The notes beneath the pieces were generated by a model. It saw only the letters and a program-made list of their open reading frames with translations, was not told where the DNA came from and made no database searches. This document shows, piece after piece, positions 31,179-45,536 of a stretch of 64,000 bases of DNA. Within the stretch, counting starts at the first letter, position 1, and each line of letters opens with the position of its first letter. The stretch comes from a virus: positions 6,094-70,093 of the IMG/VR virus record IMGVR_UViG_3300034082_002865; one strand, written 5' to 3'. The translations under genes were made by a program, and so were the position numbers.

Positions 31179-31739
31179 CTATTCAGTTATAAAAAGGTCA
31201 ACTGGCATAGCTAATCGCATTTTGCCAGTAAAGGGTAATGTTTGATGATATAAGAAACTAGGAAATACTATAGCTTCTCCGCTCTTAGGAGTATATAGTT
31301 CTGGGGCAAATATTTTTCTTAGAGAATCAGTATAACCTCGGTTAGCATTAGCACGTGGATCTATTAGATATAATTCGCCACCTGCACCTACTTCGTCACA
31401 CATTAGATAAAATACAGCACTAACCATAGCACCAGAATGGTTATGTACAGGAATCATATATCCACCAGATATTCCTGCAAGCCAACTTCTTAAAGAATAC
31501 TCCATTTGTTCAATCTCTAAATTAAAGACTTCTTTAAGGTATACAGCAAAAGTAGGTATTACTACATTATCTCTGAAATTTTTTAGTCCGGGAACGTCTC
31601 TTAAAATATCAAAATTTTTATCTTCTTTGGGTGGGTTTCTCAGATCACAAGTAGCAAGTATAGTTTGTGCTGCTTCGGCCACATCTACAGTTTCTATTAA
31701 TATTGTAGTTGGCCACAGGTTGTGTAATCCAGGTTTCAT
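31179..31739 (-). CDS. Putative 2OG-Fe(II) oxygenase (TIGR02466-like)
   Basis: SW...HNH....SAVFYL...L.LIDPR...FPSFLYH..P....R. Confidence 0.8.
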   Translation of the reverse strand: MKPGLHNLWPTTILIETVDVAEAAQTILATCDLRNPPKEDKNFDILRDVPGLKNFRDNVVIPTFAVYLKEVFNLEIEQMEYSLRSWLAGISGGYMIPVHNHSGAMVSAVFYLMCDEVGAGGELYLIDPRANANRGYTDSLRKIFAPELYTPKSGEAIVFPSFLYHQTLPFTGKMRLAMPVDLFITE

Positions 31740-32140
31740 TTTTTTAATCCAAATTCTAAATCAAAGTAATGGCGGACTTGCGGAACTACACCTAATTCAT
31801 TATCAAACTGCCATCCACCGATACCATTTAATATTCGATGATATGTTTTGGGATCTGTTGAATAACTAACATAGTCAGGATCATTACCATATAGAAGATC
31901 GGGATCTTCTAAGTAATCAATAGGATCTCCTCCGTATATTTCGGACAGCCAGCGGGCGTAGCAAATACCTACCATATAGCTCTTTGCAGGCCAGATCCAT
32001 CCTATCTCAGTTGTCTTAAAATATTTTATTGCGTTATCCACAACGTCATCACTTATTTCTATATCAAAGTTACTTAGATCATCTATATGTGTAGGATTTA
32101 ATCTGTGATATATCTCTTGTTGAAATTTCCATTCTTTCAT
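31736..32140 (-). CDS. Hypothetical protein of the radical SAM cluster
   Basis: 134-aa ORF with ATGA overlaps on both sides; acidic DPDLLYGNDPDY motif. Confidence 0.6.
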   Translation of the reverse strand: MKEWKFQQEIYHRLNPTHIDDLSNFDIEISDDVVDNAIKYFKTTEIGWIWPAKSYMVGICYARWLSEIYGGDPIDYLEDPDLLYGNDPDYVSYSTDPKTYHRILNGIGGWQFDNELGVVPQVRHYFDLEFGLKK

Positions 32141-32565
32141 ATGATCTCTAATTTTTTACATATTTCTGTTATTTTATTAGATAGATACTTGTTAGTTAAG
32201 AACAATCTAAATAAAAATCTAGTCTCTAACCAAATTTTCTTATTATTCTCTACTTTTGCCACAGTTAACAATGTATTAAATGTTTTAAGAAGGTAATCGA
32301 TCTGATCGTTGTTGGGTTTAATTATTATAAAAGGACCGGTCAATACAAAATTTTTCCGATCTGTAAACAGATATTCTATAATACTATGGCCTTGACAACT
32401 ACCGGATGAAATATATCCTTTTGAATTTAATATCATTACAGCCTCTGCAATATTGGGATCTAATTGTTTAAGAAAATCCGGATGATTACTTTTAATTCCT
32501 GTCAAGCCTCTATAAGAATTTACAGATCTACATTTTAGGTCCGGGTCTGATCTATATAACTTCAT
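32137..32565 (-). CDS. Hypothetical protein with a D..I..V..LN..G....SCxGH motif (Tyw3-like N-terminal motif)
   Basis: LDPNIAEAVMILNSKGYISSGSCQGH. Confidence 0.45.
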   Translation of the reverse strand: MKLYRSDPDLKCRSVNSYRGLTGIKSNHPDFLKQLDPNIAEAVMILNSKGYISSGSCQGHSIIEYLFTDRKNFVLTGPFIIIKPNNDQIDYLLKTFNTLLTVAKVENNKKIWLETRFLFRLFLTNKYLSNKITEICKKLEII

Positions 32566-33466
32566 TTTTGTACCAGTTTAATAATAGTTTATAGCCATTA
32601 CAACTATGTGTCAAATCTTTAACATATCTATAATGCTCAGTTAAACATTTACCATAATAATTGCACGACTTGCAAATTTCGCTTGTATTCTTTTCCGGCT
32701 CGTCGATTGCCCATAACATGTATTCTTCTATAGAATCCAATGGCTTAAAATATTCTCTATCATTTAGATCAAATTCTAGTACGGCAAACTGACCAGTTGG
32801 CGTTATGTAAACATGATCATTACTAAACGCATTCTTTTCCCCTGCAAGAGATTTCTTTATATTATCTTCATTAACAAACTGGAATTTCTTTTTAATTGGA
32901 CTAGTAATCCAATTTTGTATAAAGTTTTCAAATTCTTTGTGTGTTACTTTGAAATCGTTCGCTTGATTGGTTGAGTAGGGTTTAATTTCTACAGATACTA
33001 AATTTGTTAACAAGTTCAATTGTGCTATCATGTTATCACTATCTTTTACTATAAGATCCGGACTTGCCAATATCAACACGGAAAACTCTCGAGGTAACAT
33101 CACCATGTTGTTCCAGACACGCTTATGCTGTTCTCTACACTCAAAATCATAGCTAACTGTAACATACATATCGGGATTAAGTATAACATCATTTACCATG
33201 CTTAGATTAGTAATAATGTTAATATCGTCAATACCGTATTTTGATAACATGTTGCACAAATCTGTAACATATTCAGTAGGAAGGATCCCTATCTCTCCAC
33301 CATATAAGTCCACCATATCTATGTTGTGGTATACTAATGTTTCTTTAATACGATTCTCCAACACATCTAACGACAGCAATTTTCGATCACTTAATTGTGC
33401 AGGTGTTAGATAGCAAAACTCACATCTAAAATTACAATAGTAACTTGGATTAATTGACAATATCAT
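32552..33466 (-). CDS. Radical SAM enzyme with C-terminal Cys cluster (SPASM/twitch-like)
   Basis: CNFRCEFC motif, YGGE, C-terminal CKSC....C...H...C. Confidence 0.9.
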   Translation of the reverse strand: MILSINPSYYCNFRCEFCYLTPAQLSDRKLLSLDVLENRIKETLVYHNIDMVDLYGGEIGILPTEYVTDLCNMLSKYGIDDINIITNLSMVNDVILNPDMYVTVSYDFECREQHKRVWNNMVMLPREFSVLILASPDLIVKDSDNMIAQLNLLTNLVSVEIKPYSTNQANDFKVTHKEFENFIQNWITSPIKKKFQFVNEDNIKKSLAGEKNAFSNDHVYITPTGQFAVLEFDLNDREYFKPLDSIEEYMLWAIDEPEKNTSEICKSCNYYGKCLTEHYRYVKDLTHSCNGYKLLLNWYKNEVI

Positions 33467-34530
33467 AGTTCTCTTACATATTCTGTGGGTATGAGTTGGC
33501 CAGTCATGCCGTTAGCTTCGATGATAGCAGGTGCAAGTGTTTTCATTTTAGCACAATGCAGTTCGACCATGCCATGCTCTTTCAAATCTTTAATAGTTTT
33601 TTTACAACCATTACAAATATCAAACATCGGGCAAGTGTAGCAACTCTGTTTAAGAGTTTGAAGTTCAGGTTGGAATCTTAAAGGAAATACTTTTTCACCA
33701 TCCATCTCTTGTTCAAAATCAATAGCATATTGCCTGTCATCTCCAAACGCTCCACAACTGTAATAATCTCCACTTGGCTGTAATGTCCTAATACCTTCGT
33801 CGCAATTTCTATTTTGAGGACATGTAGTAGTTTTACCTCTTAGTCGTTTAACCATCTGCTTGGTATTATATTCCCATTCAGTAAGCCCTTGCTTCCATAC
33901 GTTAACATATATCTCATATATATCGGCCAGCATATACGGGCGACCTTCTTGCCCCATTGTAATATTCTTAAACTTAACAGGTGGCCCGCTACTGAACGCA
34001 TAATTTAATTTACACTCAACATTCATTTTCTTAGCGAGTACTACATTATCGATAGCTGTTTGAGCATTCTCTTCAGTGATAACTGTGATAAAATCAGGAC
34101 GATATCCTATACGCTCCAGCATCATATTACTAACGTTCCAGAAATCTTCTTCACTGAATACTGTCAAGTCGCCCTTAAGGCGACCGCCACCGTATTGAAA
34201 GCTAGTCGTAATACCTAGGCGAGGATGTTTGAATAATGATTCCCACTTATTGGGATTTTTATAGAATGGCCAAAGATTACTAGTAAATGATATACCGGCA
34301 TTACTGCCTATTTGATCAAGATGTTCAATAATTTTCCAATAGTAGTCGGGACTCATCATCAATGGGTCGCCGCCATTAACTATAATTGTATTTGTCTCCG
34401 GATATCTTTCTAAAAACTTAAAGATATAAGAGTGATCTAACTCGGATGTTTTATCATCTGTAATGTATGTACTAGAACAAAATGTACATTTGAAGTTACA
34501 CTTTTCTGTTGGCTTTATAATTAATTCCAT
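33463..34530 (-). CDS. Radical SAM/SPASM enzyme
   Basis: IIKPTEKCNFKCTFC, GGDPL, C...C..GDYYSC...CYTCPMFDICNGC...C. Confidence 0.92.
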   Translation of the reverse strand: MELIIKPTEKCNFKCTFCSSTYITDDKTSELDHSYIFKFLERYPETNTIIVNGGDPLMMSPDYYWKIIEHLDQIGSNAGISFTSNLWPFYKNPNKWESLFKHPRLGITTSFQYGGGRLKGDLTVFSEEDFWNVSNMMLERIGYRPDFITVITEENAQTAIDNVVLAKKMNVECKLNYAFSSGPPVKFKNITMGQEGRPYMLADIYEIYVNVWKQGLTEWEYNTKQMVKRLRGKTTTCPQNRNCDEGIRTLQPSGDYYSCGAFGDDRQYAIDFEQEMDGEKVFPLRFQPELQTLKQSCYTCPMFDICNGCKKTIKDLKEHGMVELHCAKMKTLAPAIIEANGMTGQLIPTEYVREL

Positions 34531-36233
34531 TAAATCGTCTCTTCAACAACTAACAATCGAAACACTTCACTATAGATCATAGACTTGTTATTATCTATAA
34601 ATTCTTCCATAACAATAATCTTTAATCTGCCTTGTAATCGCTTTATGTTACGTGCAGGCGTATCCGGATTTAGAATGTCAACCGCTTCATTCCATATTAC
34701 ATCAAATCCGTCTAATCTTTTCATAACATTAAAACATGCTTTGCCAAACTCATTGGGACTAGCAAATTCACTAAGTGATTCATACAAGTGTTCTAATAGA
34801 TAGTTGCCTGCTATGTTCATAATCCACATCTCAACTGCCTGCTCTCGTGTAAACGAGAAACAGCTAGCAATTGTCTTGTAATACGTACTATTTTTTCTAT
34901 ATAGGCTATTAGAGTTGTCAACTCCGGAGTCGTCGACTACATCAACATATACTTCTACTAACTCTATGTTATACCGCTTTAGGTACTCGGGTCTGGATAA
35001 TTCTGAATCAGGTAAGAACATATAATCATGGCGTTGACTGTTCCACGCCTTGAAATTCCACAATATAGTCATTTCTCTATAGAAGTCTTCTAATGTAGAT
35101 CCGGGCATACCCATAATCAATTCAATATTAGGAATAGGATATCCTTCTTCATGACAGCGTTTGTTTATGTGTTCGCTTAGTTTAATCTTGTTCTCTAACG
35201 ATAGATCTATTCTGTTAGCAATCTTCATAGCAACTTCACTAACACTCTGTATGCTAATTGACGGGACAGTGTTAACAAACATTGGTAAATTTTTAGGATC
35301 GAACATTTTGCTATCATTGAGTTGATTAGAGTTAATACCTATAACACTAAACCAAGCATCTACTAATTTGATCCTTCTGTCCAAATCCTTGCTTTTCATG
35401 GTGCTAATATCAGTTAGCTTTACACCGTTCTCCCAACCAAATTTGAATATGGTAAGATCTCTTTCTAAGAATGCTCCAAAGTTAGCATCAGTTAAGAATG
35501 CTTCTGTGTAACCTGCTTTTTTTAATGCTAGTATGTCTTTCTCAACCACTTCAGTTGGCTTTTTATATATTTTACTGCCGATTCCGCCACCCCATTCACA
35601 AAAACTACACTGGTAAGGACAACCTCTGGTTGTTTCTAGGATCATAAAAGATTCTATATTATTAGCTATTGCATAATCTCTAGACTCTTTTAGAAATTCG
35701 TAGTGCTCTTCATAAACACTGTAGTCTGGCATAAATTGCGAACACTTCTTAAAACTACGTAGTTCCCAAGATATGTCATCGAGGTTGGGCTTTCCATTAG
35801 TTGCAATGTAACTATCAATTAGTTCTTGTACGAACACTTCGCCGGGCTTAGTAGGCTTTAAGATAAAGTCGTACATTGACCTAGTGGATAACAATTTAGG
35901 ATCGTTAGTTCCAATTTGTGGTCCTCCTAAAACACATAGCGCATTAGGGTTTAGTACTTTAACATGTTCAGCTAGTCTATCAATAATATCATAGTTCCAA
36001 ACATAGGAAGAAAACAAATATATATCAGCTTCTTGTATACCATCTTGATAAATGTCTTCTACTGTGTTGTATTGATTAAACTTGTAGGGAGCGGTTAGCC
36101 ACTCAACTTGAGTCACATTGTGGCCGTGTCGTGCGTAATAGCTTTGGAACATAAGATACGCAGCATTATTAGCAAGACTCCAGTCTGCATGTGGCGGATT
36201 AACGAACGCTATTTTTATTTTTGTCATCAGCAT
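34530..36233 (-). CDS. B12-binding-domain radical SAM enzyme
   Basis: N-terminal cobalamin-binding-like segment (FSSYVWN..VLGGPQ), ETTRGCPYQCSFCEWG, DANFG, ELIMGMPG. Confidence 0.88.
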   Translation of the reverse strand: MLMTKIKIAFVNPPHADWSLANNAAYLMFQSYYARHGHNVTQVEWLTAPYKFNQYNTVEDIYQDGIQEADIYLFSSYVWNYDIIDRLAEHVKVLNPNALCVLGGPQIGTNDPKLLSTRSMYDFILKPTKPGEVFVQELIDSYIATNGKPNLDDISWELRSFKKCSQFMPDYSVYEEHYEFLKESRDYAIANNIESFMILETTRGCPYQCSFCEWGGGIGSKIYKKPTEVVEKDILALKKAGYTEAFLTDANFGAFLERDLTIFKFGWENGVKLTDISTMKSKDLDRRIKLVDAWFSVIGINSNQLNDSKMFDPKNLPMFVNTVPSISIQSVSEVAMKIANRIDLSLENKIKLSEHINKRCHEEGYPIPNIELIMGMPGSTLEDFYREMTILWNFKAWNSQRHDYMFLPDSELSRPEYLKRYNIELVEVYVDVVDDSGVDNSNSLYRKNSTYYKTIASCFSFTREQAVEMWIMNIAGNYLLEHLYESLSEFASPNEFGKACFNVMKRLDGFDVIWNEAVDILNPDTPARNIKRLQGRLKIIVMEEFIDNNKSMIYSEVFRLLVVEETI

Positions 36234-37260
36234 AATTGTATACTTCTTTGAGCCAACAAGCTTCTTGTGTTCTTATCTTCTTAGTATGATTATTCATAAA
36301 GCAGCCAAACATACAATATTGCATGTGTTCACAGCTTAGGCAATCATAATCTTCTAACCATTTATCTTTGTGTTTAGTTAAGTTACCAAAGAATGTAACA
36401 ATTTGTTGTGTAGGTTTATTAGGTTTTATATCGTAAGGTGTGCATGAGTCTATATCAGCATTTTGCCTAACAGTAATAGTGCTCATACAGCTCAATGGCT
36501 GCGGCAATTTTCCTGTCATATCCTTAAACGGTTGACAGTTGGGCCAACGATCTAGCATAACTTTGTAAAAATCTCTCAGTTCAACATCAGACGGCATAAG
36601 GAAGTTACTAGTCCTAAAATTAGGATCGGGAAATAAGTCGCCGCCTTCGGGTGTGTAATGATCAAATGTTATTTCAAAGTTATTGTAAATGTAATCGAAA
36701 AAGGGTACATTATCCGACATAAATCTATCAATAGATGGCTTGGTCATAACACTACCTACAAACTTAATGTAGGGTTTGAACTGTGCTAAATTCTTCTTGA
36801 AGATTTCAAAATTCTCTGTATTAAAACGGCCTACAGGATCATAACTAACTGCTATCTGTATACCTACTCTATCTAAAAACGCAGTAACTCTTTCAGTCTT
36901 TTTCCAAACTAAATTAGTCGATATGTGCATTTCAGTCGGAAGGTCTATGCTTTTACCATATTCTCTAACCCTGTTGATAAGCAGTTCGTACTCATGAAAT
37001 ATGCTGTCAGGCAATTCATCCGCAAGTAATTCGCCACCCATAAAATTAACAGTGGTAGAAGTCTTGCCTTTCTTCTTAAGGGCAAGCATAGAGCTTGCAA
37101 CAAGATCAAACTTCTCAGCAATATTATTCATTCCTACCTTGGCTTTGTGGTCTTGATAGCACATTTGGCAGGATAGGTTACAATATTCGAATAAAATTAC
37201 TATTAACTCGCCGTGAGAATTGCTTTTTACCTTTACTGTGTCTAGAATAGAAGTGTTCAT
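36199..37260 (-). CDS. Radical SAM/SPASM-like enzyme
   Basis: CNLSCQMC, MGGE, C-terminal CLSCEHMQYCMFGC...C. Confidence 0.9.
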   Translation of the reverse strand: MNTSILDTVKVKSNSHGELIVILFEYCNLSCQMCYQDHKAKVGMNNIAEKFDLVASSMLALKKKGKTSTTVNFMGGELLADELPDSIFHEYELLINRVREYGKSIDLPTEMHISTNLVWKKTERVTAFLDRVGIQIAVSYDPVGRFNTENFEIFKKNLAQFKPYIKFVGSVMTKPSIDRFMSDNVPFFDYIYNNFEITFDHYTPEGGDLFPDPNFRTSNFLMPSDVELRDFYKVMLDRWPNCQPFKDMTGKLPQPLSCMSTITVRQNADIDSCTPYDIKPNKPTQQIVTFFGNLTKHKDKWLEDYDCLSCEHMQYCMFGCFMNNHTKKIRTQEACWLKEVYNYADDKNKNSVR

Positions 37261-37265
37261 GGATA

Positions 37266-37323
37266 TATTTATAGTAGCAGATTATGACGGAGAAATCAAC
37301 CATGTTTGGTATCCGCATAAATA
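37266..37323. promoter_or_regulatory. Divergent late promoters
   Basis: TATAAATA on the minus strand (37266-37273, 5 nt before ATG 37260) and TAAATA on the plus strand (37318-37323) followed by AGGAG/AAGGA before ATG 37354. Confidence 0.6.
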
Positions 37324-37353
37324 TATCAAAATATCCACTAGGAGAAAAGGACA

Positions 37354-38481: not shown

Positions 38482-38484
38482 TGC

Positions 38485-39159
38485 ATGATTAATGTTGGCA
38501 ATATCCTTAATAGTCCTGTAATTGAAGATCCGTGGCAACATAAAGAAGTAAAAAATGTTTTCAGACAAAACTTCTTTCAGCGGCTATCTGCCGAAGTGCA
38601 ACAGGTAAAAGACCATATACAAGTAGGGGACAACGGGCTGTGGATGTTTGAGGCAGTGCAGTTAGGCATTAGTCAAAGTCTAGTAGATGAAATATTTGAA
38701 GCAAACAAACAGTTCCTTAAAATATCTGCACAATTGATTAAACAGTTTAATACAAAGAACACTTCTCAGATAGGCTATTTCAGCATTCCTAGATTTAATT
38801 TTGTAAAACCCAACTACGTAGGTGAAATACACGATGACGGCGATACTAAAGAAAAGACTGTTATTATGACAACTTATCTGTATCCAAATCAATCTACAGG
38901 AACAAGGTTATATACACAAGAGGTAGAAAGTTCTTATCATAGTTCACTTAACTGGGAACCAAACAGTGCCCTAGTGTTTGCCCCTGTAACTGATGTTACA
39001 TGGCATAGTTTTAACTCAGGGCACAGCGAGCGAATAACACTGAGCTTCTTCTTTGAAAAGATAGAAAATATGGATTTTATAAATCGACTATCAGAAGAAA
39101 AAATTGAATGGTTCTACAACAACTTTGCTAAAGATATAATGAGTATCGAGTTAGATTAA
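38485..39159 (+). CDS. 2OG-Fe(II) oxygenase (paralog family)
   Basis: PWQH N-terminus, HDD..K...YL.P..GTRLY..W.PN..WH...R.T. Confidence 0.8.
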   Translation: MINVGNILNSPVIEDPWQHKEVKNVFRQNFFQRLSAEVQQVKDHIQVGDNGLWMFEAVQLGISQSLVDEIFEANKQFLKISAQLIKQFNTKNTSQIGYFSIPRFNFVKPNYVGEIHDDGDTKEKTVIMTTYLYPNQSTGTRLYTQEVESSYHSSLNWEPNSALVFAPVTDVTWHSFNSGHSERITLSFFFEKIENMDFINRLSEEKIEWFYNNFAKDIMSIELD

Positions 39160-39839
39160 ACTGTATGATGCAGTCTGTTTTGACCTAGCATATCATAGAA
39201 CCATAGCTTCCTATCCAACCCTAGTTTATCAAAATGCTCTAGTGATTCCATCTTTTCGTAGTACAGATTGAGCGTGTATCTTGATAAGCCGTTGCCTTTA
39301 TAACTATGCCAAGTAACCCCGGGTTGACTCATCATTAGCACAGCCCTATTTGGTTTCCATTCAACTTCTGTTACAAAGTTTGCTTCATCTGGTCCATTGT
39401 ACAAACGGGTACCTGCTGTCTGCTCAGGGATTAGGTAGATAACAAGGGCCATTGTCTTGCTTGTGCCCTCGTCGTGTATTGCACTGTTTAAGTTACCTAT
39501 AGAATAGTTGAATCTTGGTATATTATAGTAACCGACTTGCGAGTCAATGTGGTTAGGAAACTGTGTTAGTAATTCTTTGTTAATGGTTAACAGTTGATCC
39601 GCCATTAACGTAACATCGTCTGCTAGACTAGATTCTAATCCTAGTTCAACAAACTCATTAGGCCAGATTCCGTCTGCGTAGTACTGATCATCTTTTTCTA
39701 CAGATGATAGTAATGTTGCAGCCTTCCTGAATTTTTCAAATACTTCAGGAAGTAGTATATCATCAACTATCTTATAAGGCCACGGATTATTAATGATAGG
39801 AGCACCGACAATGGCTTCTAAATTAATTAGATTGTTCAA
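39156..39839 (-). CDS. 2OG-Fe(II) oxygenase (paralog family)
   Basis: HDE..K..IYL.P..GTRLY..WKPNRA..TWH...R.T. Confidence 0.8.
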   Translation of the reverse strand: MNNLINLEAIVGAPIINNPWPYKIVDDILLPEVFEKFRKAATLLSSVEKDDQYYADGIWPNEFVELGLESSLADDVTLMADQLLTINKELLTQFPNHIDSQVGYYNIPRFNYSIGNLNSAIHDEGTSKTMALVIYLIPEQTAGTRLYNGPDEANFVTEVEWKPNRAVLMMSQPGVTWHSYKGNGLSRYTLNLYYEKMESLEHFDKLGLDRKLWFYDMLGQNRLHHTV

Positions 39840-39841
39840 GT

Positions 39842-40567
39842 CTATGCCTGTACTGCTTCTAATTCTGCTTGGTGGGCGGCTGCAAAGTCTTTGCCTGTTA
39901 GTTGGCCACTGGCAATAACAGATGTTAAAACGTGCATAGGGTTATTGATGTTTGCCCAGAAATTATACAAGTTCTTACCTTTGAACATGTATTCGTTAAA
40001 ATACGATGTATAATTTGTTAACCACTCTGTGTTAATCTTATTATAGAACAAATAAAACTCTTCATATTTTAGAAGTTGGACAAAATTTATACCTGTTAGA
40101 TCGTCAGTCGGGTCTGATGGATGAGATTCAACAAACTCTCTAAACTCAGGAACATCGATAGTTTGCATATTGTAGATAGTTAAACTGTCTAATACTTTCG
40201 ACCATTGGTTAATAATTTCTTTATTTTCTTCTACAAACTTTGTCAGTTGAGCATTAGATAACATCTTACCTTCCGTTTGTGGAAGTCCAAATCTATTAGT
40301 AAACAACATTTCTAACGCAGCAATTTCTAGTGTACGAATCTGTACTAATATTTTTGAATTAAAATAGTCTTTTAATAACTCTAAGAACTCGTCATCAAAT
40401 TCTACATCAATATCACATGGGATATTAAGATTACTAAGGTAGATTAAAAGTTTACTACCTTTTAAGGTACTATTCTTATAATCAATTTCATATTGTACTG
40501 TGTTGTCAACGAAGTACTTTTTTAACCCATCCATTGGGATAGGAGCGGTTACTTTTATATTTTGCAT
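39842..40567 (-). CDS. Hypothetical protein immediately downstream of the CHxS protein
   Basis: 241-aa ORF starting 3 nt after the CHxS gene stop; no recognised motif. Confidence 0.65.
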   Translation of the reverse strand: MQNIKVTAPIPMDGLKKYFVDNTVQYEIDYKNSTLKGSKLLIYLSNLNIPCDIDVEFDDEFLELLKDYFNSKILVQIRTLEIAALEMLFTNRFGLPQTEGKMLSNAQLTKFVEENKEIINQWSKVLDSLTIYNMQTIDVPEFREFVESHPSDPTDDLTGINFVQLLKYEEFYLFYNKINTEWLTNYTSYFNEYMFKGKNLYNFWANINNPMHVLTSVIASGQLTGKDFAAAHQAELEAVQA

Positions 40568-40570
40568 TTA

Positions 40571-41158
40571 TTATCTCCTTGAACGCGAACTATGGCAAGA
40601 ACTGTGGCAACTTGCGTGGCAAACATTTACTGTAACAGTTTCGGTATTGTCTGAAAAATCAAGGTACAGTGCTCTAGCACGGTCAAATAAATCTTCTAAT
40701 CCAGCTCTTTCTATCCTTGCGCCAGTTAATGGCTGGCCTCTTGCTAACAACGCCGCATTTGTAGCGTAGATGTAACCAGTATTCAAATGAGCTTTACGTG
40801 TTTGATCAAAAATAATGCCGCCCGGTGTTCTTGGGCCAGCACTTGTGTTCCAAGGGGCACCGCCAGTTACTGTTACATTTAAGATAGCCCTCATGTTTCT
40901 AATATTTGAATATCTAAATGTTTCTGATAGCACACCATTGTAAATTGTTAAAGCAGCAACAAGACTGCCCCGGGCGCCGGCGCCCGATAACGAAGTTGGT
41001 TTGCCGCTAGTATCGCCGCCGAAATATGCTGCACTCAATTCTGGAAACGGTATTGCGTTTGTACCCCAAACAATGCCTGAATTAGCAGTTGCGACTACGT
41101 AGTCAGCAAATCTGTCAATTATGTTCTGTAATGTTACTGGATTGGTTAATGATGCCAT
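40571..41158 (-). CDS. 195-aa protein with C-terminal (Cys-His-x-Ser)3 tail; candidate substrate/precursor of the radical SAM cluster
   Basis: Ends ...TVTVNV-CHAS-CHSS-CHSS-RSRR; GAGGA Shine-Dalgarno and TATAAATA upstream. Confidence 0.75.
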   Translation of the reverse strand: MASLTNPVTLQNIIDRFADYVVATANSGIVWGTNAIPFPELSAAYFGGDTSGKPTSLSGAGARGSLVAALTIYNGVLSETFRYSNIRNMRAILNVTVTGGAPWNTSAGPRTPGGIIFDQTRKAHLNTGYIYATNAALLARGQPLTGARIERAGLEDLFDRARALYLDFSDNTETVTVNVCHASCHSSCHSSRSRR

Positions 41159-41169
41159 ATGTTAATTCC

Positions 41170-41865
41170 TCACCCTATATTTATATGTAGTCTACCTTGC
41201 CCGATCTTTTCATAGAACCATAACAACGAATTAAGGGAATCTTCATCTTCTCCAGGTTTATACAACGTATTTTGTAATGCTTCCATCCGTTCTACAAAAA
41301 AATTTAAGGTAATTCTTGGTTGGTCAGATTGTTGACCTTGCCAATTATGCCAAGTTACTCGATGTCCTGGATAAAATAATGCTGCCCTATTTGATTTCCA
41401 TGGAACTTGTGTAACAAAATCACTGTTGTTAGGGCCGGAATATAATCGAGTACCTACACTCTTTTCTGGTTGCAAATACGTTACTAAATTTAGTATTTTA
41501 TAAATGCTTTCGTCATGTATCGGATATTGAAAGTAGCGGCCTGTTATACCAAACTTTGGCATAATAAAGTAACTACCCCTAAATGCACCATTTAGGCAAT
41601 TTTCTCCTACTATCTCTTTTAGATTATACAGTATTAGATCAGCGGTGTCAAGTATCAAATTAGTTGCTTTGTCAGATATACCAAGGGCAATAGCTTCGTC
41701 AATATGTACCGGCACTGTTTTGTCCGATATACATAAATGAGACAAATGAGTAGCTGCTTGATTAATTATTTCAAAAGATTTATCATCAAATATATTATCA
41801 ATTATTTTATGAGACCAGGGGGTTGTTATTAACGGTGCATTGATAATATTGTTAATGTTTATCAT
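41170..41865 (-). CDS. 2OG-Fe(II) oxygenase (paralog family)
   Basis: PWSHKIIDN, HDE..K..TYLQP..GTRLY..WKSNRA..TWH...RIT; start set at MININ by analogy with 38485. Confidence 0.8.
   Translation of the reverse strand: MININNIINAPLITTPWSHKIIDNIFDDKSFEIINQAATHLSHLCISDKTVPVHIDEAIALGISDKATNLILDTADLILYNLKEIVGENCLNGAFRGSYFIMPKFGITGRYFQYPIHDESIYKILNLVTYLQPEKSVGTRLYSGPNNSDFVTQVPWKSNRAALFYPGHRVTWHNWQGQQSDQPRITLNFFVERMEALQNTLYKPGEDEDSLNSLLWFYEKIGQGRLHINIG
41178..41185 (-). promoter_or_regulatory. T4-type late promoter for the CHxS gene
   Basis: Perfect TATAAATA, 19 nt upstream of ATG 41158, inside the 3' end of the upstream gene. Confidence 0.6.
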
Positions 41866-42694
41866 CAGTAATCCATATATCATTTATTTTTGTAAATTTG
41901 ACACCGCCAAAAGTACACTTATTATTATCAAAAGAAATAATATCTTTGAAGAAAATTTTATGCTTTATATGTGATTCCCAATGATTTGGATCAATGCAAG
42001 TGATAAAATCTAACGAATATGTACAGTGAGCTAGTTTCAACGAATTATTTGCAATTTCAAAGTACGCATACTTGCCACCATCTTCACAAATTAATTTATC
42101 AGTTAATGTAGTTGCTTTTATCATAAAATCCTTAGACTTCTTAAATATTTTTAAGAATGAAATTGGATTAGTAATTTCTGTATAGGGTCGATTACAAAAA
42201 AACGGATCTTGATCTAAAAAATTATCCCATACGTAAAATATCTTTACACGATCTGTTGGTATAATATAAGATAGTACTAATAATCGAGCAGTACCAGGAT
42301 GTGCAATATACTTGTTATCCGCCGCCTGTAATAATTGTATAGGATTGTTAGTACCGTTTTCTTTTATATCTTTAATTACCCATCCTAGTTTTAATAGATA
42401 TCTTAGATGTCTATATTGTGGTGACCAATCTTTTCCGTCCCAAAAATCTGACTGCAATGCTAATTGATCAATATAGTTAAGATCTGATTGTCTTAATGTT
42501 TCAATATAATTACTAACTTCTTGTATAACATTAACACTAGTATATGCAAATAACTCATCTGAAGAAATATCAAAATACACTACTTTAGATTTTTTATTAA
42601 GAAAAAACCAACTTATGGCGGCGATATTTCTAAATAATCGACGTAACCAGCAGGTCACCTTATTCATATAATTGAGTATGGTGCCAATGTTCAT
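41852..42694 (-). CDS. Hypothetical protein with a ParB/Srx-like motif
   Basis: IKENGTNNPIQLL....KYIAHPGTARL resembles the ParB-N G..PI.....y.i..G..R motif; start set at the TAATG overlap at 42694. Confidence 0.45.
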   Translation of the reverse strand: MNIGTILNYMNKVTCWLRRLFRNIAAISWFFLNKKSKVVYFDISSDELFAYTSVNVIQEVSNYIETLRQSDLNYIDQLALQSDFWDGKDWSPQYRHLRYLLKLGWVIKDIKENGTNNPIQLLQAADNKYIAHPGTARLLVLSYIIPTDRVKIFYVWDNFLDQDPFFCNRPYTEITNPISFLKIFKKSKDFMIKATTLTDKLICEDGGKYAYFEIANNSLKLAHCTYSLDFITCIDPNHWESHIKHKIFFKDIISFDNNKCTFGGVKFTKINDIWITDDKH

Positions 42695-43389
42695 TATTTG
42701 TTTGTTGTTAGATGACCTTGCCCAAATTGGTCGTACAGCCAAATTAAATCTTCTTTAATATCAAACATCCCATCTTCATCTTCTAGATGTTGAGTCAATG
42801 TTTCCATCTTTTCAATTTCAAATTTAATAGTAACTCTTCCTGTGGAATTAGGATTATACCAATCATGCCAAGTCTCTTCATTCCTGTGAGGAGTCAACAT
42901 AAATGCTCGGTTAGGTTTCCATTCAAGTGTATGAGTATATGTATTCATATCATTTTCTGTGTAAAAATGAGTACCTAAGTTTTTCTCAGGGTACAGGTAT
43001 AATACAACAACCATTACTTTATTTGCACCATCTGTATGGATAGGAAAACGATAGTCTTTGCCAGTAATAGCAAATTTAGGCATACAGTAATATCCGTGGC
43101 GACTAGGATTAAAGTGATGGAATGGCTGTGCTAAGTTATGTATATTATCTAGAATGTTATCAGCAACTGAAATAATGTCGTTAATAGCTTCTTGGTCGAC
43201 GCCCAAATTTCTAGCTTGTCTTAACCACATACCTATATAAGTATTGTCTTCACTATATTGGCTAATATGTTCTGCTGCCTTGCTTACTCTTGTAAATGCA
43301 TCCGGACTTAAGAAGTTTTCAATAATTTTATGCTCCCAGGGAAAGTTGGTTATAGGAGTTTCTTGGATCTTGCTGGTAATATCGGTCAT
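42694..43389 (-). CDS. 2OG-Fe(II) oxygenase (paralog family)
   Basis: PWEHKIIEN, HTD..K..LYLYP..GTHFY..WKPNRA..TWH...RVT. Confidence 0.8.
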   Translation of the reverse strand: MTDITSKIQETPITNFPWEHKIIENFLSPDAFTRVSKAAEHISQYSEDNTYIGMWLRQARNLGVDQEAINDIISVADNILDNIHNLAQPFHHFNPSRHGYYCMPKFAITGKDYRFPIHTDGANKVMVVVLYLYPEKNLGTHFYTENDMNTYTHTLEWKPNRAFMLTPHRNEETWHDWYNPNSTGRVTIKFEIEKMETLTQHLEDEDGMFDIKEDLIWLYDQFGQGHLTTNK

Positions 43390-44432
43390 ATCTGTTTAAT
43401 ATTAATTATTTTGCGTTTATTTATAGATGCTAAATTGATCATCAAACTCTTAGGTGCTCCGCATATATCACCCTGCCATTCTAATTGATGACAATCGCTA
43501 TTGCAGTACTGGAACACTTCGCAATCATAGCATCTAGGATCTCTAGAACGTTCGCAGGTAATGTTTTCTAATCTCTGAGGGTTAGTCAATAGATCAGGAA
43601 TCATATCATTAATATGGCCAAATGCCTGTTCAGGTGCGCTGTTTGGACAGCCAGCAATAGTTCCATCTGCATTAACTGTGAACAGCTTTTCTTCGCAATC
43701 TCTACAGAAGGTGCCACCACCAGTAAATCCCGTTTCAAATTTTGTGTAAACTGATTCTAAAAATTCATTATCAAACCAGGATCTAGCATCATGTTGCTGA
43801 CTCTGTTCGTGCAACTTTAGGAACCACATGTCCTGCTCTATATTTGTGGGAAATATATGTAGATTAGCTGCGGCGGAACCATTCATAGTTAACCGCTCCA
43901 ATGCCAACTCAGTTACGCCTAACTCACGTACCCATTCTAACAAATCGATCGGTTCCATTGCAACAGTACCTTTAGTAACGCTGACAAATAGCTTAATAGT
44001 AACACCCAGATCAATTAGAGTCGTTACATTTTTACGCCAAAGGTCGTATTGCTTAGGGCTGGCAAAACGAATATCGGGATCCCAACTTGTTCCTATACGG
44101 CCGCCAAGTGGTCCCATAATAAAATCAATCTTATCTTGAGTTAGCTTGAAGGTAAGATTAGTGGTAATGCCCCAACTTTGACTGGGCCAAAGATCTTGAC
44201 AGTTATCGTACACATACTGTAAAGATTCTATGTCTGCAAGGAATGGCTCACCACCGTGAAATTCTAAATGTACATGTGGACTGGGCGCATCTTTAGATAA
44301 TCGTTGTAACCAGTCCGCGGTCTTAACATGATCCCAGTATATCTTTGCACCTTTGCTACCACTGGTAAAACAATGTAAACAATTAAGATTACAGGTTTCA
44401 GTTGTCTTTAGATAAATCAATAATTCTTTCAT
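43386..44432 (-). CDS. Radical SAM/SPASM enzyme
   Basis: YLKTTETCNLNCLHC, FHGGEP, CRDC..GTIAGCP...CYDCEVFQYCNSDC...C. Confidence 0.92.
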   Translation of the reverse strand: MKELLIYLKTTETCNLNCLHCFTSGSKGAKIYWDHVKTADWLQRLSKDAPSPHVHLEFHGGEPFLADIESLQYVYDNCQDLWPSQSWGITTNLTFKLTQDKIDFIMGPLGGRIGTSWDPDIRFASPKQYDLWRKNVTTLIDLGVTIKLFVSVTKGTVAMEPIDLLEWVRELGVTELALERLTMNGSAAANLHIFPTNIEQDMWFLKLHEQSQQHDARSWFDNEFLESVYTKFETGFTGGGTFCRDCEEKLFTVNADGTIAGCPNSAPEQAFGHINDMIPDLLTNPQRLENITCERSRDPRCYDCEVFQYCNSDCHQLEWQGDICGAPKSLMINLASINKRKIINIKQI

Positions 44433-44893
44433 CAGTATCCTACGCTAAGTGCCCAAGTGTTTGCTCTGCTGTGTACTTTATGAATGTGACGTCTAGGAAT
44501 ATAAACGCCTTGTCCCGGATTTAATATGATACGCTTATTTCTTAATAAGACTATCTTCTGTCCTTTGATCACATGTAGGTATACATTTACATCGTCTTTA
44601 TGCCAATTGAAGCTATAGCCGTATCGTTGAGCAACAAACAGATGTATATTTTTTATATCAAATCTAGCAAAGTTAACGGCAATGTCATTTACACTTTCTA
44701 GTCCCTCTACTTTGATTGCAGGGAATGTCTTGTACTGTTGTACCCAAGATAGATAGTCAAATTTCTCGTTGACTAGGCAATCAGCGTGTGGATGTCCTGG
44801 ATATCCTATTACCCTGATATGTTGATTTTCGTATCTATCGTAATCAACTAATAGATCTTTTGTTAACTGTAGTAGAGTTCGATTGCAAGTCAT
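44432..44893 (-). CDS. Cupin/JmjC-like oxygenase
   Basis: SFNWHKDDVNV...KGQK...LNPGQGVYIPRRHIH (HxD...H). Confidence 0.75.
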   Translation of the reverse strand: MTCNRTLLQLTKDLLVDYDRYENQHIRVIGYPGHPHADCLVNEKFDYLSWVQQYKTFPAIKVEGLESVNDIAVNFARFDIKNIHLFVAQRYGYSFNWHKDDVNVYLHVIKGQKIVLLRNKRIILNPGQGVYIPRRHIHKVHSRANTWALSVGY

Positions 44894-45536
44894 ATAATTC
44901 TGTTAGCCAATAGTCGGCCATTGGCACATTTCTGTATTCTTCAAAACAAGGAGATCCAAGTGTATAATGAATCAGCTTGGCATCTTTGTTGTCACCATAC
45001 TCATCTGCTAACCAATTCCATTCTGCAGGTATACTTCCTATTAATTTATCATCCAACCACTTGAACTGATGCAGGTATTGTCCGGTCTGTTGCTCAATCA
45101 TGGCAGGTGTTAGTACACTGTTTCTCTCGTGAGCACAGTTGATCAACATAACACTGCTCCAATTTTTTCTATTGTAATTTCTATTGGCATTACCCAAAAA
45201 CTTAATAGGACTAGATGTCTGATAATCATGTTGTACACACATAATAGCATATTTAGAATTAGAAAGCGACCAAAGCTGAGAGATATCTGTCCGGGCTAGC
45301 ATATCACAATCCATAAAGATTGCCCATCCTTTGTATCCCATCATGTAGGGAACTAAGAACCTACTGTAGCTAAATGCAGTACTGCCGTCAGTATGAGTTT
45401 CTGTATAGAAGTCCATACTTTCCAAATTTATTGGAATAATGCTGATTGGTTGGGAAGTTAGTCGTGTTAGACTATTTGCCAGCACGGCAAAGTTTAGGGA
45501 CTCTCTAGAATCGTACCCTACGAAAATTGGAATCAT
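44844..45536 (-). CDS. Glycosyltransferase (GT-A, GT8-like)
   Basis: IFVGYDSRE, FSYSRFLVP, DCD (DxD), RKNWSS, EWNWL, IHYTLG.P. Confidence 0.8.
   Translation of the reverse strand: MIPIFVGYDSRESLNFAVLANSLTRLTSQPISIIPINLESMDFYTETHTDGSTAFSYSRFLVPYMMGYKGWAIFMDCDMLARTDISQLWSLSNSKYAIMCVQHDYQTSSPIKFLGNANRNYNRKNWSSVMLINCAHERNSVLTPAMIEQQTGQYLHQFKWLDDKLIGSIPAEWNWLADEYGDNKDAKLIHYTLGSPCFEEYRNVPMADYWLTELYDLQSNSTTVNKRSIS

What the first reader, a model, noticed from the sequence alone, without database searches (positions are those of the whole stretch)
31179..45536. Phage-encoded radical SAM / 2OG-oxygenase maturation cluster built around a Cys-His-x-Ser tail protein
Seen: about 18 tightly packed, often overlapping genes. 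They include five CxxxCxxC radical SAM enzymes (four with C-terminal Cys clusters, one B12-binding type), five 2OG-Fe(II) oxygenases, a JmjC/cupin protein, a GT8-like glycosyltransferase and several unknowns. At the centre is a 195-aa protein ending (CHxS)3-RSRR, and late-promoter motifs lie inside the cluster. Established: rSAM/SPASM enzymes crosslink Cys (sactipeptides, ranthipeptides) or aromatic/His residues (triceptide cyclophanes, His-Xaa-Ser systems) in peptides; B12-rSAMs usually methylate; 2OG oxygenases hydroxylate. Inference: a viral RiPP-like or virion-protein post-translational modification pathway. A pathway this enzyme-dense is unusual in a phage and may be undescribed.
Basis: partly seen in the sequence, partly recalled or inferred. 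Interest (0 to 1): 0.92.

Follow-up and report, generated by a model that had tools for sequence, protein, structure and literature searches.

The report
Phage radical-SAM kit for Cys-His-tailed protein
A lake-water phage carries a widespread but unstudied set of iron-sulfur "radical SAM" enzymes and iron oxygenases that always travels with one small folded protein ending in three Cys-His-x-Ser units, and these enzymes most likely rebuild that tail chemically.

Summary
Window 31179-45536 has 18 packed genes: five CxxxCxxC radical SAM (rSAM) enzymes, a JmjC-like cupin, a Pfam-supported 2OG oxygenase, a GT8 glycosyltransferase and a 195-aa protein ending CHASCHSSCHSSRSRR.

Eleven genes form a conserved cassette: cupin, rSAM, tail protein, two unknowns, rSAM, B12-rSAM, rSAM, rSAM, unknown, oxygenase. 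It recurs in over 120 viral contigs, five cultured jumbo-phage lineages and Bdellovibrionota chromosomes.

Starting from the rSAM instead, 31 of 38 loci have the tail gene just downstream. Six of the other seven are a rearranged order; one has a tail without RGRR.

The tail-protein family has 893 clusters at 50% identity, no name, no Pfam domain and no PDB fold match.

Seven window genes are lineage-specific additions: four divergent oxygenase-like paralogs, two unknowns and GT8.

Best reading (about 0.6): leader-independent rSAM and oxygenase modification of the tail of a folded, late-made protein of the fibre/baseplate module. The chemistry is unknown.

The closest known system is the bacterial HXS antiphage system, but none of its family thresholds is met.

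This scan already reported the same cassette on other genomes. I found no paper describing it.

The parts
44432..44893 (-). CUP (g17): JmjC-like cupin, first gene of the conserved cassette
   Evidence: Pfam JmjC_2 23.0 bits (cut-off 22), AraC_binding 25.0 (21.1), Cupin_2 26.9 (27.2). H98, D100, K113 and H138 are conserved in 59 family members. Present in 13 of 13 related loci.
43386..44432 (-). R16 (g16): radical SAM enzyme with full SPASM domain; it lies directly upstream of the tail gene in relatives, but g15, g14 and g13 are inserted between them in this window
   Evidence: CNLNCLHC motif. TIGR04085 30.3 bits (cut-off 27). Best full-length hit is PapB at 1.1e-12, 47.8 bits against a cut-off of 340. 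C14/C18/C21 plus 8 conserved Cys in 89 members. 31 of 38 homologue loci have the tail gene within 2.5 kb downstream.
42694..43389 (-). g15 (p231): divergent 2OG-oxygenase-like paralog, lineage-specific insertion
   Evidence: No Pfam or NCBIfam hit. HxD/E...H...RxT invariant among the 4 paralogs. hhalign to the g01 family gives probability 41%. Absent from 13 of 13 loci.
41852..42742 (-). g14: 296-aa unknown, lineage-specific
   Evidence: No Pfam, PHROG or NCBIfam hit. 0 of 13 loci. One HMM hit, in L128.
41170..41883 (-). g13 (p237): divergent 2OG-oxygenase-like paralog, lineage-specific
40571..41158 (-). TAIL (g12): 195-aa folded protein ending (CHxS)3-RSRR, the presumed substrate. The tail is encoded at 40574-40621. 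A TATAAATA lies at 41178-41185, 20 nt before the ATG.
   Evidence: sequence. (tail conserved out to RSL2 and Atu_ph07). (118 of 120 homologues end in the strict motif). (893 clusters; 135 of 145 strict). (AF2 pLDDT 85.3, pTM 0.81). (promoter motif).
39842..40567 (-). U11 (g11): 241-aa unknown, nearly always directly after the tail gene
   Evidence: phrog_20767 1.1e-58. 68 of 92 loci with at least 1 kb downstream have it. AF2 pLDDT 87.2. No PDB match.
39156..39839 (-). g10 (p227): divergent 2OG-oxygenase-like paralog, lineage-specific
   Evidence: tblastn finds one phage record, Synechococcus phage S-SCSM2R, annotated 2OG-Fe(II) oxygenase superfamily protein, 3e-15.
38485..39159 (+). g09 (p224): fourth paralog, on the opposite strand
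37354..38481 (+). U08 (g08): 375-aa unknown of the cassette; inverted here, co-directional in relatives
   Evidence: present in all loci long enough, same strand as the rest. (only L4, D88 and E176 invariant). No PDB or Atlas lead.
36199..37260 (-). R07 (g07): radical SAM enzyme with SPASM-type Cys set
   Evidence: CNLSCQMC. Hits to PapB 8.3e-7, QhpD 9.7e-7 and the CXXX-repeat-target family 1.4e-5, all far below cut-offs. C27/C31/C34 plus 7 conserved Cys.
34530..36233 (-). B12 (g06): B12-binding-like radical SAM, probable C-methyltransferase; optional cassette member
   Evidence: KedN5 family 9.8e-28 (96.7 bits, cut-off 700), PF02310 20.2 bits (cut-off 32.1). Present in 10 of the 11 related loci that reach that far.
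33463..34530 (-). R05 (g05): radical SAM enzyme with SPASM-type Cys set
   Evidence: PF04055 34.0 bits (cut-off 29.5). DynA 2.4e-12, anaerobic sulfatase maturase 4.9e-11. The SPASM region aligns to anSME structure 4k36 at 1e-4. 3 plus 8 conserved Cys.
32552..33466 (-). R04 (g04): radical SAM enzyme with one C-terminal CX2CX5C...C cluster
   Evidence: CNFRCEFC. Only the rSAM core hits known families. C265, C268, C274 and C289 conserved.
32137..32565 (-). g03: 142-aa unknown; weakly related 248-aa genes hold this position in a rearranged subgroup
   Evidence: 0 of 13 loci. Weak HMM hits (about 1e-5) between R04 and U02 in L215-L221.
31736..32140 (-). U02 (g02): 134-aa unknown of the cassette
   Evidence: phrog_20737 1.7e-49. 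Present in 10 of the 11 related loci that reach that far.
31179..31739 (-). OXY (g01): 2OG-Fe(II) oxygenase, last gene of the cassette
   Evidence: PF13759 8.7e-11, 42.5 bits (cut-off 27). H101, H165 and R175 conserved.
44844..45536 (-). g18: GT8-like glycosyltransferase, occasional accessory
   Evidence: PF01501 29.1 bits (cut-off 24.3). 0 of 13 loci. HMM hits in L128, L167, L175 and Bdellovibrionota genome G002.

Best explanation
This is a conserved protein-maturation cassette. The 195-aa TAIL protein is a folded alpha/beta protein, apparently made late from its own T4-type promoter. Its last 16 residues, (Cys-His-x-Ser)x3-Arg-x-Arg-Arg, are the substrate.

Proposed steps:
- Three full-SPASM radical SAM enzymes (R16, R07, R05) and one with a single auxiliary cluster (R04) recognise the tail directly, with no leader peptide and no RRE domain.
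- By H-atom abstraction they install carbon-carbon or thioether cross-links on the C-H-x-S units. My guess is His-to-Ser three-residue cyclophanes and/or Cys thioethers.
- The optional B12-type enzyme adds a methyl group.
- The JmjC-like cupin and the 2OG oxygenase then hydroxylate or oxidise the product with O2.
- U11, U08 and U02 are non-enzymatic partners or scaffolds.
- The matured tail stays on the protein, which works in or beside the fibre/baseplate apparatus of the phage, or in an analogous fibre apparatus of Bdellovibrio-like predators.

Shown here: the genes, the motifs, the conservation, the co-occurrence and the fold confidence. Inferred: that the tail is the substrate, every chemical step, and the virion location.

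The four extra oxygenase-like paralogs, g14, g03 and GT8 are add-ons of this phage lineage. Their target is unknown.
For: Co-occurrence starting from the tail protein.
- 13 of 13 IMG/VR relatives of TAIL keep the tail.
- All 11 loci long enough keep CUP, R16, U11, U08, R07, R05, R04 and OXY in one order.
R16 lies upstream in 65 of 84 loci with enough flank, and U11 downstream in 68 of 92.
- The misses are mostly a second subtype: two ~127-aa tail genes behind a giant ORF, followed by one to six CxxxCxxC proteins in 11 of the 13 loci listed, within what each locus holds.

Co-occurrence starting from the enzyme.
- 31 of 38 R16-homologue loci have the tail gene within 2.5 kb downstream.
- The other 7 are six loci with a rearranged order and one locus whose tail lacks RGRR.

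Cultured phages. RSL2, Atu_ph07, pPa_SNUABM_DT01, Phosso and S13 all have the tail protein right after the R16-type rSAM.

Tail conservation.
- 118 of 120 homologues found by sequence similarity end in the strict motif, as do 135 of 145 profile hits.
- The body of the protein is only about 17% identical per alignment column.
- Repeat number varies (2, 3 or 4 units). That is usual for a repeated substrate and unusual for a fixed metal site.

Enzyme type.
- SPASM Cys sets are conserved.
- The best family similarities are to peptide and protein maturases: PapB, DynA, anSME, QhpD, the CXXX-repeat-target family, HxsB and HxsC.
- The rSAM motif starts at residues 11-27, which leaves no room for an N-terminal RRE.

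Precedent. HxsA, a protein with His-x-Ser repeats, is matured by two rSAM enzymes with a +8 Da change on an SHRSS motif (PMC13128918, sections 9 and 10 read).

Late expression and structural context.
- TATAAATA lies within 60 nt upstream of 18 of 123 distinct tail genes, against 65 of 1435 other ORFs.
- The window flanks are tail-fibre, collagen-like and virion structural genes.
- In RSL2, S13, DT01, Phosso and Atu_ph07 the cassette is next to or near baseplate, spike, tail-sheath or virion structural genes.
- The Atu_ph07 paper says MS-detected virion proteins lie mostly in clusters including 'CDS 170-215' (PMC6102473, passages). gp170 is the tail protein in RefSeq numbering.
Against: - There is no biochemical evidence. 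No mass shift has been measured for any member.
- The Atu_ph07 virion hint rests on a cluster boundary named in the text. Supplementary Table S5 could not be opened, so detection of gp170 itself is unverified.
- The near-invariance of Cys, His and Arg would also fit a metal-binding or Fe-S-binding site.
- None of the rSAMs reaches the curated cut-off of any named maturase family, so the chemistry cannot be transferred from a known enzyme.
- Bdellovibrionota carry the cassette in chromosomes without phage genes around it, so 'virion protein' cannot be the general role.
- TATAAATA is not enriched in the window overall.
Confidence: 0.6

Rival explanations
1. True RiPP or peptide-derived cofactor. 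The folded N-terminal domain is only a large carrier. After modification the 16-residue tail is cut off and acts as a small peptide, metallophore or redox cofactor, as with PQQ or mycofactocin.
For: The core sits at the C-terminus, as in RiPP precursors. rSAM enzymes are combined with O2-dependent oxygenases, which recalls PQQ biosynthesis (recalled, not tested). Up to seven enzymes act on 16 residues.
Against: No protease or exporter was recognised in the window cassette or among the inspected neighbours. The N-terminal part is one homologous, confidently folded family: 199 of 200 tail ORFs form one BLAST cluster and pLDDT is 85. That is unlike a leader peptide. No RRE domain was found.
Confidence: 0.12
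2. TAIL is not the substrate. It is a metal or iron-sulfur carrier or scaffold that serves the many cluster-hungry rSAM enzymes, or a metal-stapled structural element. The rSAMs then modify something else, such as the neighbouring fibre proteins.
For: Cys and His are invariant and spaced i, i+4, i+8, and the tail is predicted to be partly helical (H186-192). The cassette lies beside giant fibre-like genes in the window, in subtype 2 loci and in Bdellovibrionota. Each SPASM enzyme needs two or three clusters.
Against: The number of CHxS units varies from 2 to 4, and some tails lack RGRR. Position 4 (Ser, otherwise mostly Asn) is conserved in 75-92% of tails although it is not a usual cluster ligand. 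The tail is low-confidence in the model (pLDDT 55-59). The HXS precedent shows an HxS unit as an rSAM target.
Confidence: 0.15
3. The cassette makes a modified nucleotide or modifies phage DNA, and TAIL is an unrelated structural neighbour.
For: Phage rSAM enzymes are known from 7-deazaguanine and thymidine hypermodification pathways (the search listing gives PMC8989533; otherwise recalled). R04 has weak QueE, MoaA and viperin-type hits to its rSAM core. DHFR genes are inserted in the cassette of RSL2 and S13.
Against: Those hits cover only the first ~90-150 residues and score 17-39 bits against cut-offs of 180-284. No kinase, glycosylase, DpdA, QueC/D or PLP enzyme is in the cassette. The tail gene and R16 co-occur almost without exception.
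Confidence: 0.05

Closest known systems
HXS antiphage system (HxsA/B/C/D; Li et al., Nat Commun 2026, PMC13128918; abstract and sections 9 and 10 read)
   Same: A protein rather than a short peptide carries tandem His-x-Ser units and is matured by two or more rSAM enzymes plus a small helper. The modified unit is S-H-R-S-S (here C-H-x-S-C/R). Basic residues accompany the repeats.
   Different: HXS is a bacterial defence system, with 99.7% of systems in Pseudomonadota. It has 4 genes. HxsA has a peptidoglycan-binding domain, N-terminal processing and periplasmic export. Here there are 4-5 rSAMs plus a cupin and 2OG oxygenases, a Cys before every His, the repeats at the extreme C-terminus followed by RGRR, and hosts that are phages and Bdellovibrionota. 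No Hxs family model reaches its cut-off.
Triceptide three-residue cyclophane synthases acting on His motifs (HaaB, HtkB; PMC11499958, start of abstract seen in the search listing)
   Same: SPASM-type rSAM enzymes cross-link an aromatic or His ring to the beta-carbon two residues on. H-x-S fits the aromatic-x-x pattern and is repeated.
   Different: Triceptides are short leader-dependent RiPPs. The XyeB, GrrM, AmcB and FxsB models score only 12-28 bits against cut-offs of 310-450. No role for the invariant Cys is known in triceptides.
Protein-substrate SPASM enzymes: anaerobic sulfatase maturase (anSME) and QhpD of quinohemoprotein amine dehydrogenase
   Same: These are leader-independent rSAM enzymes acting on a short motif or a small subunit of a folded protein. 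R05 aligns to anSME (4.9e-11; PDB 4k36 at 1e-4) and R07 to QhpD (9.7e-7). The last unit, C-H-x-S-R, resembles the sulfatase C-x-[PA]-x-R motif at positions 0 and +4 (motif recalled).
   Different: Scores are far below the equivalog cut-offs (42 vs 349; 28 vs 453). TAIL has no sulfatase or amine-dehydrogenase fold.
Ranthipeptide/sactipeptide maturases (PapB, CteB type) and the CXXX-repeat-target family TIGR04115
   Same: PapB is the best full-length match of R16 (1.1e-12). The C-x3-C-x3-C spacing of the tail recalls Cys-ladder substrates.
   Different: 47.8 bits against a cut-off of 340. No acceptor Asp or Glu follows the Cys residues. The substrate is a folded protein.

Membership tests
HXS system | HxsB equivalog (TIGR03978, cut-off 370 bits) | tested here: not met
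   Best hit is R16 at 34.8 bits, residues 9-105 only.
HXS system | HxsC equivalog (TIGR03977, cut-off 267.9 bits) | tested here: not met
   R05 25.8 bits, R16 21.4 bits.
HXS system | HxsA effector family (peptidoglycan-binding domain plus HxS repeats) and the HxsD helper | tested here: not met
   TAIL, U11, U08, U02, g03 and g14 get no NCBIfam hit at E up to 0.1. TAIL has no Pfam domain. The accession numbers of the HxsA and HxsD models are recalled.
HXS system | Tandem His-x-Ser units on the matured protein | tested here: met
   Three H-x-S units in the window protein. Position 4 is Ser in 75-92% of 130 distinct tails.
SPASM-domain radical SAM enzymes | CxxxCxxC plus a C-terminal 7-8-Cys domain (TIGR04085, cut-off 27 bits) | tested here: met
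   R16 scores 30.3 bits with 8 conserved Cys. R05 (24.3 bits) and R07 (18.6 bits) are below the cut-off but keep 8 and 7 conserved Cys including CX2CX5CX2-3C. R04 has only 4 (partial or twitch-like).
Class B (cobalamin) radical SAM methyltransferases | N-terminal B12-binding domain (PF02310, cut-off 32.1) followed by the rSAM core | tested here: inconclusive
   g06: PF02310 20.2 bits, PF04055 29.3 bits (cut-off 29.5), KedN5 subfamily 96.7 bits (cut-off 700).
Ranthipeptide maturase PapB family | NF047865 equivalog, cut-off 340 bits | tested here: not met
   R16 47.8 bits, R07 28.5 bits.
Anaerobic sulfatase maturase | TIGR03942 equivalog, cut-off 349.45 bits | tested here: not met
   R05 42.3, R16 34.5, R04 26.5 bits.
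Triceptide cyclophane synthases (XyeB, GrrM, AmcB, FxsB) | Family models with cut-offs of 310-450 bits | tested here: not met
   All hits are 12-28 bits.
RiPP pathway in the strict sense | Short precursor with a leader, a leader-recognition (RRE) element, and a protease and/or exporter | tested here: not met
   The substrate is a folded 100-360-aa family. The rSAM motifs start at residues 11-27. No protease or transporter family was found in the cassette.
2OG-Fe(II) oxygenases (for g09, g10, g13, g15) | HxD/E...H facial triad plus a 2OG-binding Arg on a jelly-roll fold | tested here: inconclusive
   The motif is invariant in the 4 paralogs. hhalign to the g01 family gives probability 41% with the triad in register. 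Pfam and NCBIfam are silent. A PDB profile search finds only 9blq, 'putative hydroxylase', at E 0.11. No structure was predicted.
Known anti-phage defence systems (PADLOC-DB 2.0) | Any defence-protein model | tested here: not met
   There are rSAM-core hits to pVip models (17-39 bits over about 60-90 residues at best), and hits to the candidate-system model PDC-M51A: g06 49.6 bits, E 6.1e-14, over residues 32-233; g05 14.5 bits. Nothing for TAIL, U11, U08, U02 or CUP.

The most novel reading that the evidence does not exclude
The matured (CHxS)n-RGRR tail is a cell-entry device shared by large phages and Bdellovibrio-like predators. On this reading it is an rSAM-built, cross-linked Cys/His element carried on a small fibre/baseplate-module protein. 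It would engage DNA, metal or the prey envelope at the moment of penetration. For example, it could escort the ejected genome through the periplasm, as the viral mirror image (or a counter) of the HxS-repeat gatekeeper HxsA. This would be the first radical-SAM post-translational modification of a virion component, and it would link phage infection and bacterial predation mechanistically.
Probability: 0.12. Interest if true: 0.92.

Novelty: new variant of a known kind. Interest (0 to 1): 0.78.

Why it matters
If the reading is right, many large phages of lakes, seas and soil, and a whole phylum of predatory bacteria, spend 8-15 kb on oxygen-sensitive iron-sulfur enzymes to rebuild 16 residues of one small protein. 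That would be a new kind of protein cross-linking chemistry. It would also be the first rSAM maturation tied to a phage structural module.

The system is directly testable in cultured phages (Atu_ph07, pPa_SNUABM_DT01) and by co-expression in E. coli. The HxS-based defence system described in 2026 gives an immediate point of comparison.

Tried and rejected
- Nucleotide megablast of the whole cluster and tblastn of TAIL against cultured phages gave no match. TAIL is too divergent. Cultured relatives were reached through U11 and R16 instead.
- Fold searches for TAIL found no known fold. Foldseek PDB best E was 0.6. VIA wide best Z was 4.4, with TssK at Z 3.6, rmsd 5.0 over 107 residues, which is below any meaningful level. 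BFVD returned only uncharacterised phage proteins.
- Searches for U11 found nothing: PDB profile, Foldseek best E 0.69, VIA best Z 4.4 over residues 1-55 only, Atlas.
- Searches for U08 found nothing usable. The PDB profile search gave one hit at E 0.5. The Atlas top hit is an unnamed cluster at 0.91, and F-box/LRR rows at 0.86 or lower are leads only.
- Complex prediction of R16 with TAIL returned no verdict (ipSAE 0.01 and 0.00, mark 0.32; controls not run).
- No RNA holder was listed for the stretch, and I laid no reads.
- Pfam on three giant ORFs and six neighbours of a subtype-2 locus gave no hit at E up to 0.001.
- Pfam on the window's flanking large ORFs gave only fn3 and Collagen, and no Peptidase_S74.
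- Literature searches found only gene lists for the cassette in the FLC6, S13 and RP12/RP31 papers and no functional study: 'radical SAM' + 'jumbo phage'; + bacteriophage, RiPP, virion; + SPASM, phage, precursor; + Bdellovibrio, RiPP. Passages were read. The jumbo-phage comparative review PMC7824862 has no occurrence of 'radical SAM' or 'SPASM'.
They may settle whether the tail protein is in particles.
- The idea that the four paralogs belong to the general cassette is rejected.
- The idea that TATAAATA is enriched in the window is rejected.

Full report
WHAT IS THERE

The window is part of a 70-kb IMG/VR virus contig judged 37% complete. Near-identical DNA is held by 20 lake-water metagenome runs from 2020 to 2025. 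Eleven of them are not flagged as a possible source.

Between 31179 and 45536 lie 18 ORFs, 16 on the minus strand, mostly overlapping or abutting. The block has 33-37% G+C against 39-48% in the flanks.

Five proteins carry CxxxCxxC and hit Radical_SAM or related models. Family alignments show:
- g16, g05 and g07 keep 8, 8 and 7 further conserved Cys in the SPASM arrangement.
- g04 keeps 4.
- g06 has a B12-binding-like N-terminus and resembles KedN5-type C-methyltransferases, at 96.7 bits against a cut-off of 700.

The other recognisable enzymes are:
- g17, a JmjC-like cupin with a conserved H98-x-D100...K113...H138.
- g01, a PF13759 2OG oxygenase.
- g18, a GT8 glycosyltransferase.

The 195-aa g12 ends VCHASCHSSCHSSRSRR.

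Four paralogs (g09, g10, g13, g15; 32-37% identical to g10) have no Pfam or NCBIfam hit. They keep H-x-[DE]...H...R-x-T. Their profile aligns to the g01 family with those positions in register (hhalign probability 41%, E 2.8e-4, against 2.9% and 0.2% for two control families). The caveat is that four of the 'five 2OG oxygenases' are supported by motif and a weak profile match only.

THE CONSERVED CASSETTE

Thirteen IMG/VR relatives of g12 all keep the tail. In the 11 loci that are long enough, the order is:

cupin - R16 - TAIL - U11 - U08 - R07/B12 - R05 - (oxygenase) - R04 - U02 - oxygenase

All genes are on one strand. g03, g09, g10, g13, g14, g15 and g18 are found in 0 of 13.

Together with the 13 loci, these hold 154 ORFs of 102-364 aa ending in the motif.
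- R16 lies upstream in 65 of 84 loci with at least 1.3 kb of flank.
- U11 lies downstream in 68 of 92 loci with at least 1 kb.

Most misses are a second subtype. It has two tandem ~127-aa tail genes directly behind a giant ORF, then two or three unknowns. One to six CxxxCxxC proteins lie within the stretch held in 11 of the 13 loci listed. They are too divergent for my HMMs or for Pfam.

The reverse test started from R16, without reference to the tail. It gave 39 loci.
- Of the 38 with at least 900 bp downstream, 31 have the strict tail within 2.5 kb.
- Six of the remaining seven have a rearranged order (TAIL-U11-U08-R07-B12-cupin-R16-R05-R04...). There the tail is seen in two loci and lies beyond the fetched flank in four.
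- The seventh has a tail ending CHGSI without RGRR.

DISTRIBUTION

Cultured phages with the cassette are Ralstonia RSL2/RSF1, Burkholderia FLC6/FLC8/S13, Agrobacterium Atu_ph07, Sinorhizobium Phosso and Pseudomonas pPa_SNUABM_DT01. In the five I inspected, the gene after the R16-type rSAM ends in the same tail.

The same DNA pattern hit 47 stretches in the species-representative genomes.
- 39 have an ORF ending in the motif. One of these (L168) is a CH-repeat false hit.
- 27 of the 38 real ones come from records named as Bdellovibrionota lineages.
- Nearly all have cassette rSAMs within the 8 kb fetched.

In two of the three Mb-size contigs I extended, I ran Pfam on neighbouring genes. They are acyl-CoA dehydrogenase, serine dehydratase, an Mrp/NUBPL ATPase, an MFS transporter and an SLT transglycosylase. 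This is therefore a chromosomal island, not a prophage. Next to it lie a 413-aa protein with the Peptidase_S74 fibre-chaperone domain, and in another genome a 2355-aa Big_2/RCC1 protein directly after TAIL-U11.

THE TAIL PROTEIN

All real tail ORFs form one single-linkage BLAST cluster over at least 60% of their length: 199 of the 200 sequences compared, the window's own included. The body is therefore homologous although very divergent (mean column identity 17%).

AlphaFold2 with 86 sequences gives a confident alpha/beta domain (pLDDT 85.3, pTM 0.81). The tail itself is at pLDDT 55-59.

No solved structure resembles it. BFVD returns only uncharacterised phage proteins, including the Atu_ph07 one.

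The family is large and unnamed.
- 515 clusters at 90% identity, all 'hypothetical' and without a Pfam domain.
- 893 clusters at 50% identity.

The tail is nearly invariant.
- Among homologues found by similarity, 118 of 120 end in the strict motif. The exceptions are one truncated sequence and one with H to P.
- Among profile hits, 135 of 145 end in the strict motif.
- Variants: an extra Gly before RGRR, tails ending after the last CHGS, four units followed by a Gly-rich end, and two units.
- Position 4 is Ser in 92%, 75% and 91% of the three units, and otherwise mostly Asn.

WHAT THE ENZYMES LOOK LIKE

The NCBIfam best hits are peptide and protein maturases:
- R16: PapB 1.1e-12, HxsB 7.6e-9, anSME 1.1e-8.
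- R05: DynA 2.4e-12, anSME 4.9e-11, HxsC 4.5e-6.
- R07: PapB, QhpD and the CXXX-repeat-target family.

All are an order of magnitude below the curated cut-offs, so no named family applies. R05's SPASM region aligns to the anSME structure 4k36 at 1e-4.

The rSAM motifs start at residues 11-27, so there is no N-terminal leader-recognition domain. PADLOC gives rSAM-core hits to viperin models and, for g06 and g05, hits to the candidate-system model PDC-M51A, and nothing for TAIL, U11, U08, U02 or the cupin.

U11 folds confidently (pLDDT 87.2), but neither it nor U08 matches anything known. Their conserved residues are mostly aromatic, Asn, Ser or Gly rather than catalytic types. I therefore read them as partners or scaffolds.

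CONTEXT AND TIMING

The window flanks are collagen-like and other tail-fibre proteins, a phrog_5838 virion structural protein and an endolysin-like gene. In the cultured phages the cassette lies next to or near baseplate, central-spike, tail-sheath or giant virion structural genes.

TATAAATA is not enriched in the window (5 found, 7.35 expected). One copy sits 20 nt before the g12 start, followed by GGGTGAGGAA. Across loci the motif lies within 60 nt upstream of 18 of 123 distinct tail genes, against 65 of 1435 other ORFs.

The Atu_ph07 paper (passages read) says MS-detected virion proteins fall mostly in clusters 'CDS 31-76, CDS 170-215 and CDS 284-329'. gp170 is the tail protein in RefSeq numbering. 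I could not open Table S5, so this is a hint, not a detection.

INTERPRETATION

The simplest account of an almost obligate pairing between one protein's invariant 16-residue end and three to five SPASM-type rSAM enzymes is that the end is their substrate. The protein is folded and conserved. No protease, exporter or RRE is present. The closest published case, HxsA, is also a protein whose HxS unit is changed by rSAM enzymes. I therefore favour maturation of a protein over production of a free RiPP.

Which bonds are made cannot be told from sequence. I rank the options as follows:
1. His-to-Ser cyclophane-type links (precedent: His-specific triceptide synthases).
2. Cys thioethers (PapB- and QhpD-like).
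3. Cys-to-formylglycine at the last unit (anSME-like).

Oxygenase steps would follow these.

Rivals are kept with lower weight: a released cofactor or peptide, TAIL as a metal or Fe-S carrier, and DNA modification.

THE WINDOW-SPECIFIC PART

Compared with its relatives, this phage has:
- inserted three oxygenase-like paralogs and g14 around the tail gene;
- a fourth paralog with U08 on an inverted 1.8-kb segment;
- GT8 ahead of the cupin.

A scan of the viral contigs with the paralog profile confirmed one relative, and one further locus has HMM hits to g10, g14 and GT8 (L128). Whether these add-ons decorate the tail protein or, for example, the many collagen-like fibres of this phage is open.

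EARLIER WORK OF THIS SCAN

Searches show that the same cassette was reported several times on other genomes, with the same reading. Those notes pointed me to the HXS paper, which I then read myself.

NOVELTY

My four literature searches found no paper that describes the system. Papers on the cultured phages only list the genes. It is a new, widespread variant of rSAM-dependent protein maturation.

Noticed in passing
window 37354-39159 (+ strand): U08 and the paralog g09 lie on an inverted 1.8-kb segment. In every related locus U08 is co-directional with the cassette. g09 and g10 are convergent paralogs whose stop codons overlap, so recombination between paralogs may have caused the inversion.
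   Followed up: partly
window 30001-46000: The cassette has 33-37% G+C while the flanks have 39-48%.
   Followed up: no
window 6774-18611 (-) and 1151-3703, 18641-21259, 60382-61560: A 3945-aa ORF and several collagen-like or tail-fibre proteins surround the cassette. The oxygenase-like paralogs plus GT8 might act on these collagen-like fibres.
   Followed up: no
L219:7005-7589; proteins P0233, P0264, P0227, P0234, P0171: Natural tail variants exist: tails ending right after the third CHGS without RGRR, four units followed by GDGPGxGGGV, and an extra Gly before RGRR. These are useful for defining what the enzymes recognise.
   Followed up: partly
L017, L042, L070, L082, L089, L102, L104, L114 and others: A second cassette subtype has two tandem ~127-140-aa tail proteins starting a few bases after a giant ORF (more than 1200-2100 aa). 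Unknowns of about 350-425 aa and 236-278 aa follow, with one to six very divergent CxxxCxxC proteins in most loci.
   Followed up: partly
L015:12941-13477 (RSL2) and L231:11931-13108 (S13): Dihydrofolate reductase genes are annotated inside the cassette of the RSL2-type jumbo phages, between an rSAM and an oxygenase.
   Followed up: no
L223:6866-13933 (-) and L225:7765-9006 (-): In Bdellovibrionota chromosomes the cassette abuts a 2355-aa Big_2/RCC1-repeat protein in one genome. In another it abuts a 413-aa protein with the Peptidase_S74 intramolecular-chaperone domain typical of phage fibres.
   Followed up: partly
window 46167-46763 (-): A 198-aa endolysin-like protein (phrog_938, 3.6e-17) with a hydrophobic N-terminal stretch lies just upstream of the cassette.
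   Followed up: no
window 36000-45600: Near-identical DNA, including the lineage-specific insertions, is present in 20 lake-water metagenome runs from 20 studies dated 2020-2025. Eleven are not flagged as a possible source. This is a persistent freshwater phage.
   Followed up: no
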